DNA from: Escherichia coli
Lineage (GTDB): Bacteria > Pseudomonadota > Gammaproteobacteria > Enterobacterales > Enterobacteriaceae
Length of the DNA stretch: 64,000 bases
Assembly: GCF_046105845.1 (NCBI RefSeq)
Contig: NZ_CP151004.1
Reading direction: 5' to 3' (one strand)
Part shown: one piece after another, positions 7,874 through 19,106 of the stretch
Layout of the letters: each line of letters opens with the position of its first letter
Position numbering within the stretch: position 1 is the stretch's first letter
The notes under the pieces: generated by a model
What the model was told of the DNA's origin: nothing
Databases searched by the model: none
Seen by the model: the letters and a program-made list of their open reading frames with translations, nothing else
Position numbers and translations under genes: made by a program

Positions 7874-8078
7874 TGTGATGCGGCGTAGACTCATGTCTAC
7901 GCCGTATTAATAGATAATGCCAATCAAAATAATTGCTACAAATTTGTAACTTTTGCTGTTGTACCTGTACAATGTCCCGGTGTTCAAGTGGCCTTGCCGT
8001 TGTAAATGTAAGCAGTGCCACGTTTTTATTAACAATATTTGCCAGGGACTTGTGGTTTTCATTTAGGCGTGGCAATTC

Positions 8079-8097
8079 TATAATGATACGCATTATC
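8079..8097 (+). promoter_or_regulatory. Fur box (autoregulatory operator) overlapping the uof start
   Basis: tATAATGATAcGCATTATC, near match to 19-bp Fur consensus GATAATGATAATCATTATC. Confidence 0.7.
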
Positions 8098-8169
8098 TCA
8101 AGAGCAAATTCTGTCACTTCTCCTAATGAAGTGAACCGCTTAGTAACAGGACAGATTCCGCATGACTGA
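8083..8169 (+). CDS. uof: uof leader peptide upstream of fur (28 aa), translationally coupled
   Basis: MIRIISRANSVTSPNEVNRLVTGQIPHD; stop TGA 8167-8169 overlaps fur ATG at 8162. Confidence 0.8.
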   Translation: MIRIISRANSVTSPNEVNRLVTGQIPHD

Positions 8170-8608
8170 TAACAATACCGCCCTAAAGAAAGCTGGCCTG
8201 AAAGTAACACTTCCTCGCTTGAAAATCCTGGAAGTTCTTCAGGAGCCGGACAACCATCACGTCAGTGCGGAAGATTTATACAAACGTCTGATCGATATGG
8301 GTGAAGAAATTGGTCTGGCTACGGTATATCGCGTACTGAACCAGTTTGACGACGCTGGTATCGTCACCCGCCACAATTTTGAAGGCGGTAAATCCGTATT
8401 TGAACTGACACAGCAACATCACCACGATCACCTGATCTGCCTCGACTGCGGCAAGGTTATCGAATTTAGTGATGATTCCATCGAAGCGCGTCAGCGTGAA
8501 ATTGCCGCAAAACATGGCATTCGCCTGACTAACCACAGTCTCTATCTTTACGGTCACTGTGCCGAAGGCGATTGCCGCGAAGATGAGCACGCGCACGAAG
8601 GCAAATAA
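8162..8608 (+). CDS. fur: Ferric uptake regulator Fur (148 aa)
   Basis: ORF MTDNNTALKKAGLKVTLPRLKILEVLQEPDNHHVSAEDLYKRL... with HHHDH and CxxC metal sites. Confidence 0.97.
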   Translation: MTDNNTALKKAGLKVTLPRLKILEVLQEPDNHHVSAEDLYKRLIDMGEEIGLATVYRVLNQFDDAGIVTRHNFEGGKSVFELTQQHHHDHLICLDCGKVIEFSDDSIEARQREIAAKHGIRLTNHSLYLYGHCAEGDCREDEHAHEGK

Positions 8609-8623
8609 GCCAGCCGGAACGAG

Positions 8624-8651
8624 AAAAGCCAACCTGCGGGTTGGCTTTTTT
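8624..8651. terminator. Rho-independent terminator between convergent fur and chiQ
   Basis: aaaaGCCAACCtgcGGGTTGGCtttttt. Confidence 0.6.
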
Positions 8652-8691
8652 ATACACGGGAAATAAGAAAAGCGAGAGTTACAGCTCTCAC

Positions 8692-9018
8692 TTATTTGTT
8701 ATTACTGCGAATTTCCTGCCAGACCTTATCACAGTCGGCTTTTACCGCCTGATCATTTCCGGTTTGCGTTGCGCGCAGACACTGCTGATAATCCAGTACG
8801 CGTACACTTTCCTGATCGGCAAACTGCTGATGTTGTTTCTCTTTCTTCAGCACGTTTAACACGCTCTGGCAGGCTTCAATTTTTTCTGGCGAACCTTGCG
8901 CGGTGTTAATACAGGCGCTGTATGCCTCTTTCAGACGACTGTCTTCCTGTGGCGCGGTTGATTGCGCACAAGCTACCAGCCCCGATGCAATCATGGCGAT
9001 GAGAATCAGTTTTTTCAT
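8692..9018 (-). CDS. chiQ: Lipoprotein ChiQ (YbfN), 108 aa
   Basis: ORF MKKLILIAMIASGLVAC..., lipobox LVAC, downstream of chiP on same strand. Confidence 0.85.
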   Translation of the reverse strand: MKKLILIAMIASGLVACAQSTAPQEDSRLKEAYSACINTAQGSPEKIEACQSVLNVLKKEKQHQQFADQESVRVLDYQQCLRATQTGNDQAVKADCDKVWQEIRSNNK

Positions 9019-9067
9019 AGCAAATTCCTCAAACGTGCGGCAGGCACAAAACCTGCCGCGTCAGGCA

Positions 9068-10474
9068 TCAGAAGATGGTGAATGGTGCGATTACCATAAA
9101 TTTCACGTCACGCTCATCCTGGAAGATGTTGCCGTAACCACCGCCCCAGCTTGGGATGTCGGAGTGGTTGTCGTATTCGGTGAAGTGCAGTTTGAACATC
9201 GTGCCTTTGGCACGACCGTCCTGAATGGTGTAGACCGCATCCAGGCTGTAGGCAGACTCTTCAATAGTCCGGTTTTTGTCGTAGTACGCATCCGGATTGC
9301 TCTGCCAGGTCGCAGGTTTAGCATCCCATGCGTAAACGTAGGAAGCGCCGATGGCGAAGCCTGGAAGATTCCAGTTTTTCAGGTCATACATCGCACCGAA
9401 GAAGACCGCTTTTTCGCCGTTGGCGTTGAAGTCAGAACGGTTATCCCACCAGATATCCAGGCGACCGTTCGAGGAAGCGTAGGTTGGAGTCATACGTTGC
9501 AGGAAATATCCCTGCTGACCGTCGGCTTTAACCCAGGTGCCTTCCAGACGCAAATCCACTACATCAGCCGCCCGGTAACCAAAGGTCAACGCTTGCAGCC
9601 AGGCAGTGCCGTCGTAAAGGTCGTTGACGCTGCGATCGTCAACTTTATCGCGCGTACCATAGAACTGGTAGCTGGTGGTTAACGGGCTACCGGCGATATC
9701 AAATTTGTAGCTGGCTTTGGCAAAATATTGATCGATATACCCTTCTGCCTGACCAAATGCCGCTTCCAGTACAAAGTTATTTTTGAAGTCGTACTTCGCA
9801 CCAATAGAATGCAGATAATCAACTTTGGTGGTTTTATCGTTCTGATAAAACTCATCCATTTCCAGATGCCACGGTGCTTTGTATTCGTTGGTCCACATGT
9901 AGGAGAAACTCAACGCACCCGCATCGCCGTAATCAAAATTCGCCCCGGCTTCCGCACCCTGATAAGTACCCGGCATAAAGCTCCAGTGCGGCGCTAACAG
10001 CGTTTGACCAGTTGGCTGAATGTAACCTGCCCTCGCCCACACCGGACCGTATTTAAATTTGGCCGCTGCTTTATACAGGCTTATACCGCTTTTGTCGCCG
10101 GACCAGTCTTCGTCATAGGCTTTATTGCTTTTTGAAAACGCGATTTCGTTCGGGTGAGAGCTGTCACCGTTTTCCGCCATTTCAATCGCCGTAAACGCAG
10201 CAATATCAAGGCCGAACATATCAGCAGCATAACCAGACTGAAAATCGAGGTTGGCGTTCCAGGTGGAGTGAGAAAGGTTGGTTTTGTATTTGTCGCCGTC
10301 GGTAACATCTTTACGGTCGCGTTCACGCTGCCAGTAATAGATACCGCCGGTTAAGGTTGAATCGTCGATGAATCCTTCGGCGCGAGCCTCCGGCATTGCC
10401 ATAAAGCCCGACATTGCTGTAACACCGGCGATAGCCAGCGCCAGCGTACTACGTTTGCCACTAAACGTACGCAT
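9068..10474 (-). CDS. chiP: Chitoporin ChiP (YbfM), OprD-family outer-membrane porin, 468 aa
   Basis: [35 protein letters not shown]... signal peptide, C-terminal aromatic residue (PFTIF). Confidence 0.9.
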
Positions 10475-10801
10475 GGGTTAATCCTCTTTGACGTATAAAT
10501 TGCTGCACCAAAGGTGAACAGCGAAAAAAATAAAAATTAAAAAAGTAGCGTTGAGAAAAGTCTCGCTGACTACAGGAACAGACTATTTTTCGCGACGCGA
10601 ATTATCAATCTCTTTCTGTAACCAGAATGTAAGAACATGAGCAACCGCACATATTTTGATGATTTTTGTTACAAGGCTTAAGTTTGCTGTTGAAAGGCTT
10701 GCAGAAGAATAAAAGCGTGAAATTCCAGCAAGATGAAAGCGGTTACATTTTATTTAATTATGGCTTGTGATTTTAAATTTGTTTTATGGATAAATTGCGA
10801 A

Positions 10802-10826
10802 GCGGAATTAATTCGCGAAGAAAAGC
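10802..10826. promoter_or_regulatory. Candidate NagC operator upstream of chiP
   Basis: gcgGAATTAATTCGCGAAgaaaagc resembles the nagE operator TTAATTCGTATCGCAAATTAA in this window; chiP is reported to be NagC-repressed. Confidence 0.3.
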
Positions 10827-10831
10827 AGAAA

Positions 10832-10860
10832 AAAACGCCGCAGAGCGCGGCGTTTTGGAT
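10832..10860 (-). terminator. Rho-independent terminator downstream of glnS
   Basis: aaaaaaACGCCGCagaGCGCGGCGTttt; on minus strand the stem is followed by a T-run. Confidence 0.6.
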
Positions 10861-10875
10861 TGTTTGCATGTTTCA

Positions 10876-10912
10876 TGCCGGATGCGGCGTAAACGCCTCA
10901 CCCGGCCTGGTA
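10876..10912. repeat. REP element
   Basis: atGCCGGATGCGGCGTAAACGCCTCACCCGGCCTgg, REP-like. Confidence 0.5.
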
Positions 10913-10922
10913 GAACTTAAAA

Positions 10923-12587
10923 TTACTCGCCTACTTTCGCCCAGGTATCACGCAGCCCAACGGTGCGGTTAAATACCGGTTTTTCCGCCGTAGAATGGCG
11001 GCTGTCGAGGCAGAAATAACCTTCACGCTCAAACTGGAATGCTTTACCCGCTACCGCGTCTTTCAGAGACGGTTCAGCAAAGCCCTGTTTGATCACCAGC
11101 GATTCCGGGTTAATCACCGACAGGAAATCATCCGCAGCACCTGGGTTCGGCACGCTGAACAGACGATCGTACAGGCGGATTTCAACCGGCAGCGCATGTG
11201 CCGCGCTCACCCAGTGGATAACACCTTTCACTTTACGACCATCTGCCGGATCTTTGCTTAAGGTGTCGGCGTCATAAGTACAGAAGATGGTGGTGATATT
11301 GCCTTCGGCATCTTTCTCCACGCGTTCAGCCTTAATGACGTAAGCATTACGCAGACGCACTTCTTTACCCAGCACCAGACGTTTGTACTGCTTGTTAGCT
11401 TCTTCGCGGAAATCGGCGCGATCGATCCAAATCTCACCGCTAAACGGCACCTGACGGCTCCCCATTTCCGGTTTGTTCGGATGGTTCGGCATGGTGACCA
11501 TTTCGCCTTCGCCATGGTAGTTTTCGATAACCAGTTTCACCGGATCGATAACCGCCATTGCGCGCGGCGCATTTTCGTTGAGATCTTCACGGATGCAGGA
11601 TTCCAGTGACGCCATCTCAATGGTGTTGTCCTGCTTGGTCACGCCGATGCGTTTGCAGAACTCACGAATAGAAGCCGCAGTGTAACCACGACGACGCAGA
11701 CCGGAAATGGTCGGCATACGCGGGTCATCCCAGCCTTCAACGTGCTTGTCGGTCACCAGCAGGTTCAGCTTACGCTTGGACATCACGGTGTATTCCAGAT
11801 TCAGGCGCGAGAATTCGTACTGGCGCGGGTGAACAGGAATGGTGATGTTGTCCAGTACCCAGTCGTACAGACGACGGTTGTCCTGGAACTCAAGCGTACA
11901 CAGAGAGTGCGTAATACCTTCCAGCGCATCGCTGATGCAATGGGTGAAGTCGTACATCGGGTAGATGCACCACTTGTTGCCAGTCTGGTGGTGTTCAGCA
12001 AATTTAATGCGGTACAGCACCGGATCGCGCATTACGATAAATGGCGACGCCATGTCGATTTTCGCACGCAGGCAGGCTTTACCTTCTTCAAAACCACCGG
12101 TACGCATTTTTTCGAACAGCGCCAGGTTCTCTTCAACGCTGCGGTCGCGGTACGGGCTGTTTTTACCCGGCTGCGTCAGGGTGCCGCGGTATTCGCGGAT
12201 CTGTTCCGGTGTCAGTTCATCAACGTACGCCAGGCCTTTATTGATCAGTTCGATCGCATAGGCGTGGAGCTGATCAAAATAATCGGAGGAGTAACGGACG
12301 TTACCAGACCAGTGAAAACCTAACCACTCAACGTCGTTTTTGATCGACTCAACATACTCGATATCTTCTTTTACCGGGTTAGTGTCGTCGAAACGCAGGT
12401 TGCACTGGCCTTTATAGTCCTGGGCGATCCCGAAGTTCAGGCAGATAGATTTCGCATGGCCAATATGCAGATAGCCATTCGGCTCCGGCGGGAAACGGGT
12501 GTGTACTGTGGTGTGCTTACCACTGGCCAGATCTTCATCGATGATCTGACGAATAAAGTTAGTCGGGCGGGCTTCTGCCTCACTCAT
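10923..12587 (-). CDS. glnS: Glutaminyl-tRNA synthetase (554 aa)
   Basis: [50 protein letters not shown]..., HIGH and VMSKR class I motifs. Confidence 0.97.
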
Positions 12588-12750
12588 CGTGGATTCCTCA
12601 AAGCGTAAACAACGTATAACGGCGTATGATCTTATAAGCGGGACAGGCTGACAACTGTTAGTTAGTGAAAATCGAAAATCTCACTGAGATTATGGGGATG
12701 ATTGATGAAAAAAAAAGCGGCAGAGAAGATCTCCACCGCTTGTCATTGTT

Positions 12751-12780
12751 GGATGCGACGCTCAAGCGTCGCATCAGGCA
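12751..12780. repeat. REP-like palindrome in glnS-nagE spacer
   Basis: GGATGCGACGCtcaaGCGTCGCATCaggca. Confidence 0.4.
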
Positions 12781-12789
12781 TAAAGAAGA

Positions 12790-14736
12790 TTACTTTTTGA
12801 TTTCATACAGCGGCGTTTGACCCGCCACGACATGGCCCTGAGCTTTAATGATCAAGCCACTGAAATCGTCGATATTGCTGCAAACCACCGGGCTAATCAT
12901 CGAGCGGGCGTTAGCGTTCAGGTAATCCAGATCCATTTCCAGAATCGGTTGCCCTGCGCTTACCTGCGCGCCCTCTTCCACCAGACGTTTAAAGCCTTTA
13001 CCTTCCAGCGCTACGGTGTCGATACCCATATGGACGACGATCTCCGCGCCTTTTTCGGTTTCCAGGCAGAACGCGTGGTTGGTATTGAAGATTTTCACGA
13101 TTGTCCCTGCGGCTGGTGATACGACGATTTTATCTGTCGGTTTCACCGCCACACCGTCACCCACCGCTTTGCTGGCGAATGCTTCGTCAGGAACCTGATT
13201 CAGTGCCACAACATCACCGGTAATCGGCGATACCAGCTCCGCGATAGACACCGCGTTTGGTACAGCCTGCGGTTTTGCTACAGGAGCGGCAGTTGCCGGA
13301 GTTGCTTCAGCTGACGCAGCGGCTACCGGACCACGGGCAACAACTTTCTTCATTGCATCGCCAATGGATTCCGCTTTCGCGCCAACAATCACCTGAATAG
13401 TCTGTTTGTTCAGTTTCACTACCCCAGAAGCACCCAGCCGTTTACACATCGCATCGTTGACGCGAGCCGAGTCAACCACGGTCAGGCGCAGACGAGTAAT
13501 ACAGGCGTCAATTGCTTTCAGGTTGTCAGTACCGCCAACCGCAGCAATATAGTTGGTCGCCAGTTGAGTCAGACCTTCTTCCGTGTTGCTGTTGGCTTCT
13601 TCAGTAACGATCTCGTCTTCTTTATCTTCACGGCCCGGCGTTTTCAGGTTGAACATACGGATAACCAAACTGAACACCACGAAGTAGATAGCGAAGAAGA
13701 CAACACCCATCACCAGCAGCATCCAGACGTTCTGGCTGGCGGCCGGCAGGTTATACATCAACGCGTAGTCGATAGCCCCCGCAGAGAAGGAGAAGCCCGC
13801 GTGGATACCCAGCAGCGTTGCCACAAACAGGCTGATACCGGTCAGCAGTGCGTGCAGGAGGTACAGCAGCGGCGCAAGGAACATGAACAGGAATTCCAGC
13901 GGCTCAGTCACACCGGTCAGGAACGCAGTAACAGCAACAGAAAGCAGCATACCGCCAACCATCGGACGACGCTCTTTCGGTGCTGCAAAGTACATCGCCA
14001 GCGCCGCACCCGGCAGACCGAACATCATGATCGGGAAGAAGCCGGACATGAACATCCCCGCGGTGCCGTCACCGGCATAGAAGCGGTTAATGTCGCCGTG
14101 GAAAACCGTACCCGCCGCGTTGGTGAATTCACCAATCTGGAACCAGGCGATGGTGTTCAGTACCTGATGCAGACCGGTTGGGATCAGCAGACGGTTGATG
14201 AAACCAAAGATACCGGAACCCAGCGCGCCCGCAGAAACGATCCACTCGCCGCCTGCATGGATAGCGTGCTGTACCGGCGGCCAGACGTAACCAAAAATGG
14301 CCGCCAGCACCAGGCAGAAGAAGCCGGTGGCAATCGGCACAAAGCGTTTGCCGCCGAAGAAGCTCAGGAAGTCAGGCAGTTTAATATCGGACCAACGGTT
14401 ATAGGCTGCGCCACCAACCAGACCGGTAATGATACCCGCCAGTACACCCATGTTAATTTCTGGGTTGATGGTCACCATCGCTTTGGTTAACACAAAGTAA
14501 CCTACCGCACCCGCCAGCGCCGCCGCACCCGCGCTGTCTTTCGACCAGCTGGATGCCACACCGATGGCGAAGATTAATGCGAGGTTATCAAAAATCGCAC
14601 CGCCCGCCTGGGCAATAAACGCAACGTTAAGTAAATCTGGCTGACCGAATCGCAGCAACAGCGCCGCCACCGGCAGCACCGCGATAGGGAGCTGTAACGC
14701 CCTACCGAGTCGCTGGAAAAAACCTAAAATATTCAT
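12790..14736 (-). CDS. nagE: PTS N-acetylglucosamine-specific EIICBA component (648 aa)
   Basis: ORF MNILGFFQRLGRALQLPIAVLPVAALLLRFGQ..., EIIC membrane domain followed by EIIB (CITRLR) and EIIA domains. Confidence 0.95.
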   Translation of the reverse strand: MNILGFFQRLGRALQLPIAVLPVAALLLRFGQPDLLNVAFIAQAGGAIFDNLALIFAIGVASSWSKDSAGAAALAGAVGYFVLTKAMVTINPEINMGVLAGIITGLVGGAAYNRWSDIKLPDFLSFFGGKRFVPIATGFFCLVLAAIFGYVWPPVQHAIHAGGEWIVSAGALGSGIFGFINRLLIPTGLHQVLNTIAWFQIGEFTNAAGTVFHGDINRFYAGDGTAGMFMSGFFPIMMFGLPGAALAMYFAAPKERRPMVGGMLLSVAVTAFLTGVTEPLEFLFMFLAPLLYLLHALLTGISLFVATLLGIHAGFSFSAGAIDYALMYNLPAASQNVWMLLVMGVVFFAIYFVVFSLVIRMFNLKTPGREDKEDEIVTEEANSNTEEGLTQLATNYIAAVGGTDNLKAIDACITRLRLTVVDSARVNDAMCKRLGASGVVKLNKQTIQVIVGAKAESIGDAMKKVVARGPVAAASAEATPATAAPVAKPQAVPNAVSIAELVSPITGDVVALNQVPDEAFASKAVGDGVAVKPTDKIVVSPAAGTIVKIFNTNHAFCLETEKGAEIVVHMGIDTVALEGKGFKRLVEEGAQVSAGQPILEMDLDYLNANARSMISPVVCSNIDDFSGLIIKAQGHVVAGQTPLYEIKK

Positions 14737-14860
14737 CTTATTCCCCCTACGAGAACCCTATTTGGCTCGTTTAAAGCCGTATTTTTATTTTGCTGCAAAT
14801 TGTACTGCCGATGTTCTGTAATCAGATTGTTAGATCATCTGCTACAGAGTGTGTGAAAAT

Positions 14861-14881
14861 TTAATTCGTATCGCAAATTAA
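14861..14881. promoter_or_regulatory. NagC operator in divergent nagE-nagB control region
   Basis: TTAATTCGTATCGCAAATTAA, near-perfect palindrome. Confidence 0.55.
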
Positions 14882-14893
14882 AAGCGTGTCTTT

Positions 14894-14909
14894 TGTGAGT
14901 TTTGTCACC
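14894..14909. promoter_or_regulatory. CRP (CAP) binding site in nagE-nagB control region
   Basis: TGTGAgttttgTCACc, TGTGA-N6-TCAC core. Confidence 0.6.
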
Positions 14910-15068
14910 AAATATCGTTATCATCACTCCCTTTTACTGGCTAAACCAGAAAACTTATTTTATCATTCAAAAAATCAGGTCGGATTGACGCCTGTCTGCG
15001 CAAATCCAGGTTACGCTTAAAGATGCCTAATCCGCCAACGGCTTACATTTTACTTATTGAGGTGAATA

Positions 15069-17077
<2,009 letters not shown>

Positions 17078-17085
17078 GAGAAAGT

Positions 17086-18306
17086 ATGACACCAGGCGGA
17101 CAAGCTCAGATAGGTAATGTTGATCTCGTAAAACAGCTTAACAGCGCGGCGGTTTATCGCCTGATTGACCAGTATGGGCCAATCTCGCGGATTCAGATTG
17201 CCGAGCAAAGCCAGCTTGCCCCCGCCAGCGTAACCAAAATTACGCGTCAGCTTATCGAACGCGGGCTGATTAAAGAAGTTGATCAGCAGGCCTCCACCGG
17301 GGGCCGCCGCGCTATCTCTATCGTCACCGAAACCCGCAATTTCCACGCAATCGGCGTACGGCTTGGTCGTCACGACGCCACCATCACCCTGTTTGATCTC
17401 AGCAGCAAAGTGCTGGCAGAAGAACATTACCCGTTGCCGGAACGTACCCAGCAGACGCTGGAACATGCCCTGCTGAATGCCATTGCTCAGTTTATTGATA
17501 GCTACCAGCGCAAGCTGCGCGAGCTGATCGCCATTTCCGTGATCCTGCCAGGGCTTGTTGACCCGGACAGCGGCAAAATTCATTACATGCCGCATATTCA
17601 GGTAGAAAACTGGGGGCTGGTAGAAGCACTGGAAGAACGTTTTAAAGTGACCTGTTTCGTCGGCCACGATATCCGTAGTCTGGCGCTGGCAGAGCACTAC
17701 TTCGGTGCAAGTCAGGATTGCGAAGACTCCATTTTAGTGCGTGTCCATCGCGGGACCGGGGCAGGGATTATCTCTAACGGGCGCATTTTTATTGGCCGCA
17801 ACGGTAACGTCGGTGAAATTGGCCATATTCAGGTCGAACCGCTGGGTGAACGCTGCCACTGCGGCAACTTTGGCTGCCTGGAAACTATTGCTGCCAACGC
17901 TGCTATTGAACAACGGGTGTTGAATCTGTTAAAGCAGGGCTACCAGAGCCGCGTGCCGCTGGACGACTGCACCATAAAAACTATCTGCAAAGCTGCGAAC
18001 AAAGGCGATAGCCTGGCGTCGGAAGTGATTGAGTATGTCGGTCGTCATCTGGGCAAAACCATCGCCATTGCGATCAACTTATTTAATCCGCAAAAAATTG
18101 TTATTGCCGGTGAAATCACCGAAGCCGATAAAGTGCTGCTCCCTGCTATTGAAAGCTGCATTAATACCCAGGCGCTGAAGGCGTTTCGCACTAATCTTCC
18201 GGTGGTACGTTCTGAGCTGGATCACCGCTCGGCAATCGGCGCTTTTGCGCTGGTAAAACGCGCCATGCTCAACGGTATTTTGCTCCAGCATTTGCTGGAA
18301 AATTAA
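17086..18306 (+). CDS. nagC: Transcriptional regulator NagC (ROK family, 406 aa)
   Basis: ORF MTPGGQAQIGNVDLVKQLNSAAVYRLIDQYGPISRIQIAEQSQL..., HTH plus ROK sugar-kinase-like fold with CxCGxxGC zinc motif. Confidence 0.95.
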   Translation: MTPGGQAQIGNVDLVKQLNSAAVYRLIDQYGPISRIQIAEQSQLAPASVTKITRQLIERGLIKEVDQQASTGGRRAISIVTETRNFHAIGVRLGRHDATITLFDLSSKVLAEEHYPLPERTQQTLEHALLNAIAQFIDSYQRKLRELIAISVILPGLVDPDSGKIHYMPHIQVENWGLVEALEERFKVTCFVGHDIRSLALAEHYFGASQDCEDSILVRVHRGTGAGIISNGRIFIGRNGNVGEIGHIQVEPLGERCHCGNFGCLETIAANAAIEQRVLNLLKQGYQSRVPLDDCTIKTICKAANKGDSLASEVIEYVGRHLGKTIAIAINLFNPQKIVIAGEITEADKVLLPAIESCINTQALKAFRTNLPVVRSELDHRSAIGAFALVKRAMLNGILLQHLLEN

Positions 18307-18353: not shown

Positions 18354-19106
18354 ATGACCATTAAAAATGTAATTTGCGATATCGACGGCGTGCTGATGCA
18401 CGATAACGTCGCCGTACCGGGCGCAGCGGAATTTTTGCACGGGATTATGGATAAAGGCCTGCCGCTGGTGTTGCTGACCAACTATCCTTCGCAGACCGGG
18501 CAAGATCTGGCGAATCGCTTTGCCACTGCGGGTGTCGATGTGCCGGACAGCGTGTTTTATACCTCCGCGATGGCAACCGCCGATTTCCTGCGTCGCCAGG
18601 AAGGCAAGAAAGCATATGTGGTGGGCGAAGGCGCACTGATTCATGAACTGTACAAAGCCGGTTTCACTATTACCGATGTGAACCCTGATTTTGTGATTGT
18701 TGGCGAAACGCGTTCCTACAACTGGGACATGATGCATAAAGCAGCCTATTTCGTCGCTAACGGTGCACGCTTTATCGCCACCAACCCGGACACCCACGGG
18801 CGCGGTTTTTATCCGGCCTGTGGCGCGCTATGCGCGGGGATCGAAAAAATCTCCGGACGTAAACCGTTCTATGTTGGTAAGCCGAGTCCGTGGATCATCC
18901 GCGCAGCATTAAACAAAATGCAGGCGCATTCGGAAGAAACGGTGATTGTTGGCGATAACCTGCGTACCGATATTCTGGCGGGCTTCCAGGCCGGTCTGGA
19001 GACGATTCTGGTACTCTCCGGTGTTTCGTCGCTCGACGATATCGACAGTATGCCATTCCGCCCCAGCTGGATTTACCCATCGGTCGCCGAAATCGACGTT
19101 ATCTGA
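18354..19106 (+). CDS. nagD: HAD-family UMP phosphatase NagD/UmpH (250 aa)
   Basis: ORF MTIKNVICDIDGVLMHDNVAVPGAAEFLHGIMDKGLPLVLLTN..., DxDG HAD motif. Confidence 0.93.
   Translation: MTIKNVICDIDGVLMHDNVAVPGAAEFLHGIMDKGLPLVLLTNYPSQTGQDLANRFATAGVDVPDSVFYTSAMATADFLRRQEGKKAYVVGEGALIHELYKAGFTITDVNPDFVIVGETRSYNWDMMHKAAYFVANGARFIATNPDTHGRGFYPACGALCAGIEKISGRKPFYVGKPSPWIIRAALNKMQAHSEETVIVGDNLRTDILAGFQAGLETILVLSGVSSLDDIDSMPFRPSWIYPSVAEIDVI

What the first reader, a model, noticed from the sequence alone, without database searches (positions are those of the whole stretch)
14861..14909. Divergent nagE / nagBACD control region with NagC operator and CRP site
A palindromic NagC operator (TTAATTCGTATCGCAAATTAA) lies 12 bp from a CRP site (TGTGA-N6-TCAC) in the 332-bp divergent spacer, matching the classical loop-forming architecture of the nag regulon. 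A related sequence upstream of chiP (10802-10826) fits reported NagC control of chitoporin.
Basis: partly seen in the sequence, partly recalled or inferred. Interest (0 to 1): 0.2.

Follow-up and report, generated by a model that had tools for sequence, protein, structure and literature searches.

The report
E. coli nagE–nagB control region

Summary
The window is E. coli. A 332-bp spacer (14737-15068) separates nagE (-) from nagBACD (+). TTAATTCGTATCGCAAATTAA lies at 14861-14881 and TGTGA-N6-TCAC at 14894-14908, 12 bp apart. The first motif is the core of the published 23-bp nagE NagC operator (14860-14882).

Its centre is 94 bp from the nagE operator. Without it the nagE operator does not repress, and no loop forms.

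A NagC matrix built only from operators outside this window ranks the three published sites of the window 1st to 3rd of 64,000 positions. In 17 other Enterobacterales both operators and the CRP site are present. Spacings of 30.5 and 94 bp hold in 16 of 17, while the CRP N6 spacer varies freely.

The chiP remark is only partly right. That box is unremarkable by score, but it sits where ten of twelve relatives carry a clearer NagC-like box.

Everything central here is already known. Interest is low.

The parts
14860..14882 (.). nagE NagC operator ('BoxE'), TTTAATTCGTATCGCAAATTAAA, centre 14871. It is the weak, hybrid NagC/Mlc-type operator, with A/T at positions +/-11.
   Evidence: It is identical to the published nagE operator (PMC3098098 Table 1; located). 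An independent matrix gives 17.8 bits, rank 2 of 64 kb. TT at -6,-5 and AA at +5,+6 are present. It is found in 17 of 17 other Enterobacterales, always with A/T at +/-11.
14891..14912 (.). cAMP-CRP (CAP) site TTTTGTGAGTTTTGTCACCAAA. The core TGTGA-N6-TCAC(C) is 14894-14909 and the centre is 14901.5.
   Evidence: 9 of 10 core positions match. TGTGA and TCAC are invariant in 18 of 18 species, while the N6 spacer takes 17 different sequences. The site lies 30.5 bp from the BoxE centre in 16 of 17 relatives. nagE and nagB are known CRP targets, also recovered by genomic SELEX (PMC3105977).
14954..14976 (+). nagB NagC operator ('BoxB'), CTTATTTTATCATTCAAAAAATC, centre 14965. It is the strong operator (C at -11 and +11) and the loop partner of BoxE, 94 bp away.
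   Evidence: It is identical to the published nagB operator (located). It scores 14.4 bits, rank 3 of 64 kb. It forms an almost invariant block, 14952-14976, in 18 species, with C...C at +/-11 in 18 of 18.
14848..14876 (-). Inferred nagE promoter: -35 TTGCGA (14876-14871, inside BoxE), 17-bp spacer, -10 CACACT (14853-14848). The inferred start is near 14841. That would put CRP at about -61 and the BoxE centre at about -30.
   Evidence: This is inference from the sequence and from the conserved AGTGT block at 14848-14852. The generic promoter scan did not detect it. The transcription start was not verified here.
14938..14966 (+). Inferred nagB promoter: -35 TGGCTA (14938-14943), 17-bp spacer, -10 TATCAT (14961-14966, inside BoxB). 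The inferred start is near 14973. That would put CRP at about -71.5 and the BoxB centre at about -8.
   Evidence: This is inference from the sequence and from the conserved CTGGCTA and TTATCAT blocks. The transcription start was not verified here.
12790..14736 (-). nagE, the GlcNAc-specific PTS transporter IIABC
   Evidence: NCBIfam equivalog NF007608, 1446.8 bits
15069..19106 (+). nagBACD operon: nagB 15069-15869, nagA 15929-17077, nagC 17086-18306 (the repressor that binds the operators), nagD/umpH 18354-19106
   Evidence: NCBIfam equivalogs for NagB, NagA, NagC (NF047937, 719 bits) and the HAD-IIA hydrolase. Gene order matches the K-12 annotation.
10584..10606 (-). Documented chiP (ybfM) proximal NagC operator GATAATTCGCGTCGCGAAAAATA, centre 10595. 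It spans -12 to -34 relative to the chiP/ChiZ start at 10572, so it lies over the promoter.
   Evidence: Published sequence (PMC3098098 Table 1). It is the best NagC matrix hit in the window (21.4-21.9 bits, rank 1). It is near-invariant in 12 other species. The start position comes from the K-12 ChiZ annotation.
10807..10829 (-). Candidate distal chiP NagC box TCTGCTTTTCTTCGCGAATTAAT, centre 10818, immediately after the glnS terminator and 223 bp from the proximal operator.
   Evidence: It keeps TT at -6,-5 and AA at +5,+6 but scores only 7.1 bits, which is not significant alone. Boxes at the same position score 11-18 bits in 9 of the 12 other species and 6.7 bits in a tenth, Citrobacter werkmanii. 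NagC binding was not verified.

Best explanation
This is the classical control region of the divergent nagE / nagBACD operons of E. coli.

**Components.** The repressor NagC is encoded in the same operon at 17086-18306. It binds two 23-bp quasi-palindromic operators. The weak one lies over the nagE promoter (14860-14882). The strong one lies over the nagB promoter (14954-14976). Their centres are 94 bp apart, about nine helical turns, so both sit on the same face of the DNA.

**Repression.** Cooperative binding loops out the intervening DNA and shuts both promoters.

**Induction.** GlcNAc-6-phosphate, made when GlcNAc enters through NagE, releases NagC.

**Activation.** One cAMP-CRP dimer binds inside the loop (centre 14901.5), next to the nagE operator. 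It activates both promoters from class-I-like distances of about -61 (nagE) and -71.5 (nagB). Expression therefore needs both the sugar and the absence of a better carbon source.

**chiP.** NagC also represses chiP, two genes away, through a strong operator over its promoter (10584-10606).

**Shown here:** gene identities; identity of the sites with published operator sequences; statistical rarity; conservation of the sites and their spacing.

**Taken from the literature:** NagC binding, loop dependence, CRP dependence, the inducer.

**Inferred:** the promoter hexamers, the transcription starts, and hence the -61 and -71.5 figures; the role of the distal chiP box.
For: - Genes: NCBIfam equivalogs for NagE, NagB, NagA, NagC, GlnS and ChiP. 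The spacer is 100% identical to many E. coli chromosomes and is present in 5424 of 5426 complete genomes.
- Operators: both match the published sequences exactly (PMC3098098 Table 1; located).
- Matrix test: a matrix from 7 operators outside the window ranks the window's three published sites 1st, 2nd and 3rd. About 0.001 (BoxE) and 0.009 (BoxB) such hits are expected per 332-bp spacer.
- Comparison with 17 other Enterobacterales, from Escherichia albertii to Budvicia: BoxE, CRP and BoxB are always present. BoxE-to-BoxB is 94 bp and BoxE-to-CRP is 30.5 bp in 16 of 17. The CRP half-sites are invariant while N6 varies. BoxE always has A/T at +/-11 and BoxB always has C.
- Literature: TT/AA at +/-5,6 are the invariant positions. 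[quoted passage not shown] Two sites and looping are required at nagE-B (PMC5401889). nagE and nagB are CRP targets (PMC3105977). NagC represses chiP (PMC4098024).
Against: - I could not read the original footprinting papers (Plumbridge & Kolb 1991, 1993, 1998; Plumbridge 2001; Plumbridge et al. 2014). DNase-footprint limits, transcription starts and the published CAP coordinates were therefore not compared base by base.
- The operator sequences come from a secondary table.
- The generic sigma-70 scan did not find the inferred promoters.
- PMC3105977 states that several CRP-binding sites exist in this spacer. I find only one good core match.
- The training operators of the matrix were partly discovered by similarity to the nag operators, so the ranking test is not fully independent.
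- The distal chiP box is not significant by score in E. coli.
Confidence: 0.95

Rival explanations
1. The motif at 14860-14882 is a stand-alone NagC operator that, together with CRP, controls nagE without a partner. This is the architecture the reader's coordinates imply: one operator plus a CRP site.
For: It is the second-best NagC matrix hit in the window and overlaps the inferred nagE -35 element.
Against: [quoted passage not shown] Repression relies on cooperative looping with the nagB operator (PMC4288165). BoxB is present 94 bp away, and that spacing is held in 16 of 17 relatives.
Confidence: 0.03
2. The 14860-14882 site is functionally an Mlc operator, so nagE would belong to the glucose/Mlc regulon rather than the NagC regulon.
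For: It has A/T at +/-11, the mark of Mlc sites, and this is conserved in 18 of 18 species. The literature calls it a hybrid Mlc/NagC site.
Against: [quoted passage not shown] Its partner BoxB has the NagC-type C at +/-11.
Confidence: 0.03
3. The chiP-upstream stretch named by the reader (10802-10826) is a chance AT-rich resemblance in the tail of the glnS terminator, with no role in chiP control. All NagC control of chiP would then run through the proximal operator.
For: The best register (10807-10829) scores only 7.1 bits, and 9-17 such hits are expected per 64 kb. Its left half is degenerate. Its distance to the proximal operator varies among species from 162 to 236 bp.
Against: It keeps the invariant TT/AA positions. 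A box ending in CGCGAATTAAT occupies the same place, right after the glnS terminator, in 10 of 12 other species, scoring 11-18 bits in 9 of them. The published table labels the known site 'ybfM proximal', which implies a second, distal site.
Confidence: 0.35

Closest known systems
E. coli K-12 nagE-nagBACD intergenic region (NagC BoxE/BoxB loop with an internal CAP site; Plumbridge & Kolb 1991, 1993)
   Same: It is the same locus. The window's 332-bp spacer differs from K-12 MG1655 at three positions only (14773, 14883, 14922), none inside an operator or the CRP core. Both operator sequences are identical to the published ones.
   Different: Nothing of substance. 14883 (A here, C in K-12) is the base just outside the nagE operator.
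Other two-operator NagC targets (chbB, glmUS, fimB) and the single-operator target galP
   Same: The same 23-bp quasi-palindrome with TT/AA at +/-5,6. Cooperative binding to two separated sites by looping is the rule (PMC5401889).
   Different: At nagE-B the two operators each cover a divergent promoter, so a single 94-bp loop represses both. At chiP the proximal operator is strong enough (21-22 bits) that it might act alone, as at galP.
gal and lac repression loops with an internal or adjacent CRP site
   Same: Repression is by a loop between two operators in helical phase, with cAMP-CRP bound in or beside the loop.
   Different: The repressor family differs: ROK-family NagC rather than LacI/GalR. 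This comparison rests on general knowledge and was not tested here.

Membership tests
NagC/Mlc (ROK repressor) operator | 23-bp quasi-palindrome with TT at -6,-5 and AA at +5,+6 around the centre (the only invariant positions, PMC4288165) | tested here: met
   BoxE has TT at 14865-66 and AA at 14876-77. BoxB has TT at 14959-60 and AA at 14970-71. The chiP proximal operator and the candidate distal box also comply. The alternative chiP register 10789-10811 does not.
NagC/Mlc (ROK repressor) operator | Sequence identity with experimentally defined operators | tested here: met
   Exact string matches to the nagE, nagB and ybfM-proximal operators of PMC3098098 Table 1. There is no published sequence to compare for the distal chiP box.
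NagC/Mlc (ROK repressor) operator | C or G at +/-11 (marks high-affinity, NagC-specific sites) | tested here: inconclusive
   BoxB has C at both positions, so the feature is met there. BoxE has T and A, so it is not met there. This agrees with the literature description of BoxE as a weak hybrid site. The feature grades affinity rather than deciding membership.
NagC/Mlc (ROK repressor) operator | Cognate repressor gene present | tested here: met
   nagC lies at 17086-18306 (NF047937 equivalog, 719 bits against a cut-off of 650).
NagC/Mlc (ROK repressor) operator | Physical binding of NagC (footprint or gel shift) | not testable with these tools
   Literature only. The nagE-nagB region is used as the positive control for NagC EMSA and footprinting in PMC5401889. 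The primary papers are not held.
Two-operator DNA-loop repression | Two operators separated by an integral number of helical turns | tested here: met
   The centres, 14871 and 14965, are 94 bp apart, which is 9.0 turns at 10.4 bp per turn. The spacing is 94 bp in 16 of 17 other species and 93 bp in one.
Two-operator DNA-loop repression | Repression lost when either operator is removed or moved out of phase | not testable with these tools
   Stated in PMC4288165 and PMC5401889, citing Plumbridge & Kolb 1993.
cAMP-CRP class I activator site | Match to TGTGA-N6-TCACA | tested here: met
   9 of 10 core positions at 14894-14909. The half-sites are invariant and N6 is free in 18 species.
cAMP-CRP class I activator site | Centre near -61.5, -71.5, -82.5 or -92.5 from the transcription start | tested here: inconclusive
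   The centre would be at about -61 (nagE) and -71.5 (nagB) if the starts are at about 14841 and 14973. Those starts are inferred from conserved -10-like hexamers only.
cAMP-CRP class I activator site | CRP-dependent expression or CRP binding | not testable with these tools
   nagB and nagE are listed among known CRP targets recovered by genomic SELEX (PMC3105977).

The most novel reading that the evidence does not exclude
The nag control region itself holds no novelty. The least-excluded new readings are side observations.

(a) The block GGTTACGCTTA (15009-15019) in the nagB leader is largely conserved across the 18 Enterobacterales compared (the TTA at 15017-19 is invariant). It fits a -10-like TAnnnT pattern. 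It could be an undescribed second nagB promoter or leader element.

(b) chiP may be controlled by a conserved loop of roughly 160-235 bp between its promoter operator and a distal NagC box placed directly after the glnS terminator, plus a conserved CRP-like site at -71.5.

Either may already be described in papers I could not open.
Probability: 0.15. Interest if true: 0.25.

Novelty: already known. Interest (0 to 1): 0.07.

Why it matters
It matters little as a discovery. This is one of the textbook examples of repression by DNA looping combined with catabolite activation, worked out in E. coli K-12 in the early 1990s.

The check is useful mainly as calibration. It missed the stronger partner operator that makes the mechanism work, and it misplaced the principal chiP operator by about 200 bp.

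The comparison across 18 species adds a modest point. The whole geometry has been held fixed across Enterobacterales: a weak operator with A/T at +/-11, CRP 30.5 bp away, and a strong operator with C at +/-11 94 bp away.

Tried and rejected
- **Primary literature.** I tried to open Plumbridge 2001 (NAR), Plumbridge et al. 2014 (Mol Microbiol), El Qaidi & Plumbridge 2008, Plumbridge 1996 and Plumbridge 1995. None is held. Footprint limits and mapped 5' ends could therefore not be compared.
- **Full-text search for the CRP site string.** It returned only antibody-hinge sequences.
- **Generic promoter scan of the spacer.** It found only a hit overlapping the nagB start codon and none of the expected CRP-dependent promoters.
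- **Rfam scan of 8000-16000.** No family reached threshold, so it gives no known RNA family to account for the conserved nagB-leader block.
Register 10802-10824 scores -10.7 bits. Register 10790-12 scores -12.1 bits despite having TT/AA. Register 10789-10811 scores 8-9.7 bits but breaks TT/AA. All were rejected in favour of 10807-10829, which is the one aligned with the conserved box of other species.
- **Fourth-best NagC matrix hit (8645-8667).** Rejected as chance. It is built from the T-run of the fur/chiQ terminator and is not conserved.
- **A second CRP site in the nag spacer,** suggested by PMC3105977. No other core match with fewer than 3 mismatches exists.
- **Supplements of PMC7815308.** They contain no nagB or nagE transcription-start data.

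Full report
**1. What is in the sequence**

Reading 14500-15300 shows TTAATTCGTATCGCAAATTAA at 14861-14881. Twelve bases follow (AAGCGTGTCTTT, 14882-14893), then TGTGAGTTTTGTCACC at 14894-14909. The ORF list and NCBIfam equivalog models identify the surrounding genes:

| Gene | Coordinates | Strand |
|---|---|---|
| chiP | 9068-10474 | - |
| glnS | 10923-12587 | - |
| nagE | 12790-14736 | - |
| nagB | 15069-15869 | + |
| nagA | 15929-17077 | + |
| nagC | 17086-18306 | + |
| nagD/umpH | 18354-19106 | + |

The spacer is 100% identical to many E. coli chromosomes and occurs in 5424 of 5426 complete E. coli genomes. It differs from K-12 MG1655 at 14773, 14883 and 14922 only, all outside the sites discussed.

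**2. Identity of the motifs**

Table 1 of the FITBAR paper (PMC3098098) lists the known NagC operators. They were compiled from El Qaidi & Plumbridge 2008 and from J. Plumbridge.

| Published operator | Sequence | Window coordinates |
|---|---|---|
| nagE | TTTAATTTGCGATACGAATTAAA | 14860-14882 (- strand) |
| nagB | CTTATTTTATCATTCAAAAAATC | 14954-14976 (+ strand) |
| ybfM (chiP) proximal | GATAATTCGCGTCGCGAAAAATA | 10584-10606 (- strand) |

Exact string search placed them at those coordinates.

**3. Is it more than chance?**

I built a symmetrised weight matrix from the seven published operators that lie elsewhere in the genome (chbB, manX, fimB1, fimB2, glmU, ydeN1, ydeN2). Scanning the whole window ranked the three published sites first, second and third of about 64,000 positions (scores with the pseudocount).

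| Site | Score (bits) | Expected hits per 64 kb | Expected per 332-bp AT-rich spacer |
|---|---|---|---|
| chiP proximal | 21.4 | 0.001 | not calculated for this spacer |
| BoxE | 17.8 | 0.02-0.07 | 0.001 |
| BoxB | 14.4 | 0.2-0.5 | 0.009 |

The expected counts come from an exact score distribution and from first-order Markov simulations. One caveat applies: some training operators were themselves found by similarity to the nag operators, so the test is not fully independent.

The CRP core with at most one mismatch is not rare by itself, with 3 in the window against 1.7 expected. Its significance comes from position and conservation.

**4. Comparison with related genomes**

A scan of one genome per species with NagE returned 17 orthologous loci that include the upstream spacer. 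NagE identity is 76-98%, and nagB-nagE-glnS synteny is kept in every locus long enough to show glnS. They run from Escherichia albertii through Citrobacter, Enterobacter, Kluyvera, Cedecea, Serratia, Rahnella and Erwinia to Budvicia.

- In every spacer the matrix finds BoxE and BoxB, and a 9-of-10 CRP core lies between them.
- The BoxE-to-BoxB centre distance is 94 bp in 16 of 17 and 93 bp in Erwinia persicina.
- The BoxE-to-CRP distance is 30.5 bp in 16 of 17.
- TGTGA and TCAC are invariant, while the six central bases take 17 different sequences among 18 species. This is the expected signature of a protein-contact footprint.
- In the MAFFT alignment the runs of invariant columns are 14865-68 and 14874-82 (BoxE), 14894-98 and 14905-08 (CRP), 14952-63, 14970-72 and 14974-76 (BoxB), the ribosome-binding site, and one further block discussed in section 7.
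- BoxE has A or T at +/-11 in all 18 species, and BoxB has C at both positions in all 18.

**5. Mechanism**

The literature I could read states the following.

- TT/AA at +/-5,6 are the only invariant operator positions, and mutating them abolishes repression.
- High-affinity NagC sites have C/G at +/-11, whereas Mlc sites have A/T.
[quoted passage not shown] On its own it is not regulated by NagC, and it relies on cooperative binding with the strong nagB operator through a DNA loop (all of the above: PMC4288165).
- Two sites and looping are required at nagE-B (PMC5401889).
- nagE and nagB are established cAMP-CRP targets, also recovered by genomic SELEX (PMC3105977).

The geometry found here fits this account. 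Ninety-four bp is 9.0 helical turns at 10.4 bp per turn, and the spacing is held fixed across the order.

From conserved hexamers I infer two promoters.

| Promoter | -35 | -10 | Inferred start | CRP position | Operator centre |
|---|---|---|---|---|---|
| nagE (- strand) | TTGCGA, 14876-71 | CACACT, 14853-48 | about 14841 | about -61 | BoxE about -30 |
| nagB (+ strand) | TGGCTA, 14938-43 | TATCAT, 14961-66 | about 14973 | about -71.5 | BoxB about -8 |

These starts are inference. The generic promoter scan did not detect them, and the mapping papers are not held.

My recollection is that the published CAP position is -61.5 for nagE and that the operators 'overlap the promoters'. I also recall that the inducer is GlcNAc-6-phosphate, which matches the summary in PMC10634360. 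These recollections agree with the inference but are not tests.

**6. The chiP remark**

NagC repression of chiP is reported (PMC4098024, citing Plumbridge et al. 2014). The K-12 record annotates the 98-nt chiP leader as the sRNA ChiZ (PMC7815308). That places the chiP start at window 10572. The published proximal operator therefore spans -12 to -34, over the promoter. It is near-invariant in 12 other species.

- The register 10807-10829 (- strand, TCTGCTTTTCTTCGCGAATTAAT) keeps TT/AA. It scores 7.1 bits, which is unremarkable alone (9-17 such hits expected per 64 kb).
- In 10 of 12 other species a NagC-like box ending in CGCGAATTAAT sits at the same place, directly after the glnS terminator. 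It scores 11-18 bits in 9 of them and 6.7 bits in Citrobacter werkmanii. One example is ATCTATTCGCGTCGCGAATTAAT in Superficieibacter.
- The label 'ybfM proximal' in the published table also implies that a distal site exists.

Whether NagC binds the E. coli distal box remains unverified. The distal-to-proximal distance is 223 bp in E. coli and 162-236 bp elsewhere.

**7. Side observations**

- **nagB leader block.** GGTTACGCTTA (15009-15019) is largely conserved in the nagB leader across the 18 species, with the TTA at 15017-19 invariant. It fits TAnnnT (TACGCT here, TATAGT in Budvicia) but has no -35 element at the normal spacing. Rfam finds nothing there. It is unexplained and may be a second promoter.
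- **chiP upstream.** There is a conserved CRP-like TGTGC-N6-TCATG at 10636-10651, centred at -71.5 from the start, and a conserved TGTAACA at 10666-10672.
- **Fourth-best NagC hit.** The site at 8645-8667 is made from the T-run of the fur/chiQ bidirectional terminator. It is not conserved, so it is most likely chance.
- **REP difference.** K-12 carries 128 bp more of REP-like sequence than this strain in the glnS-chiP spacer.

**8. Verdict**

The finding is real and correctly named, and it is already known in detail. Its description is incomplete because the partner operator is missing. Its secondary claim about chiP points near a probable auxiliary site rather than the documented one. Novelty: already known. 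Interest: low.

Noticed in passing
window 15009-15019: GGTTACGCTTA is a block largely conserved in the nagB 5' leader across 18 Enterobacterales (TTA at 15017-19 invariant). It fits a -10-like TAnnnT pattern (TACGCT at 15012-15017; TATAGT in Budvicia) but has no -35 at normal spacing and no Rfam match. It may be a second nagB promoter or a leader element.
   Followed up: partly
window 10636-10651 (- strand): A conserved CRP-like site TGTGC-N6-TCATG lies upstream of chiP, centred 71.5 bp before the annotated chiP/ChiZ start (10572). The pattern ATATGTGC..TT..TCAT is nearly invariant in 13 species.
   Followed up: partly
window 10666-10672 (- strand): A conserved heptamer TGTAACA (TGTTACA in some species) lies about 95 bp upstream of the chiP start. 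Only this half is conserved, so it is not an obvious CRP site. Its function is unknown.
   Followed up: no
window 10584-10606: The documented, near-invariant chiP (ybfM) proximal NagC operator is the best NagC matrix hit in the whole window. It overlaps the chiP promoter (-12 to -34).
   Followed up: yes
window 8645-8667: CTTTTTTATACACGGGAAATAAG is the fourth-best NagC matrix hit (14.1 bits, C/G at +/-11). It lies in the T-run of the bidirectional terminator between fur and chiQ and is not conserved in the other species examined, so it is probably chance.
   Followed up: yes
window about 10867 (glnS-chiP spacer); L001 11759-12334: K-12 MG1655 has 128 bp more than this strain here, made of REP-like palindromic units (GCCGGATGCGGCGTGAACGCCTTATCCGGCCTAC). 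This is strain-to-strain variation in REP copy number downstream of glnS.
   Followed up: partly
window 14860/14882 and 14954/14976; loci L002-L018, L043, L059: The asymmetry between a weak nagE operator (A/T at +/-11) and a strong nagB operator (C at +/-11) is kept in 18 of 18 species. The right CRP half-site is TCACC rather than the consensus TCACA in 17 of 18.
   Followed up: yes
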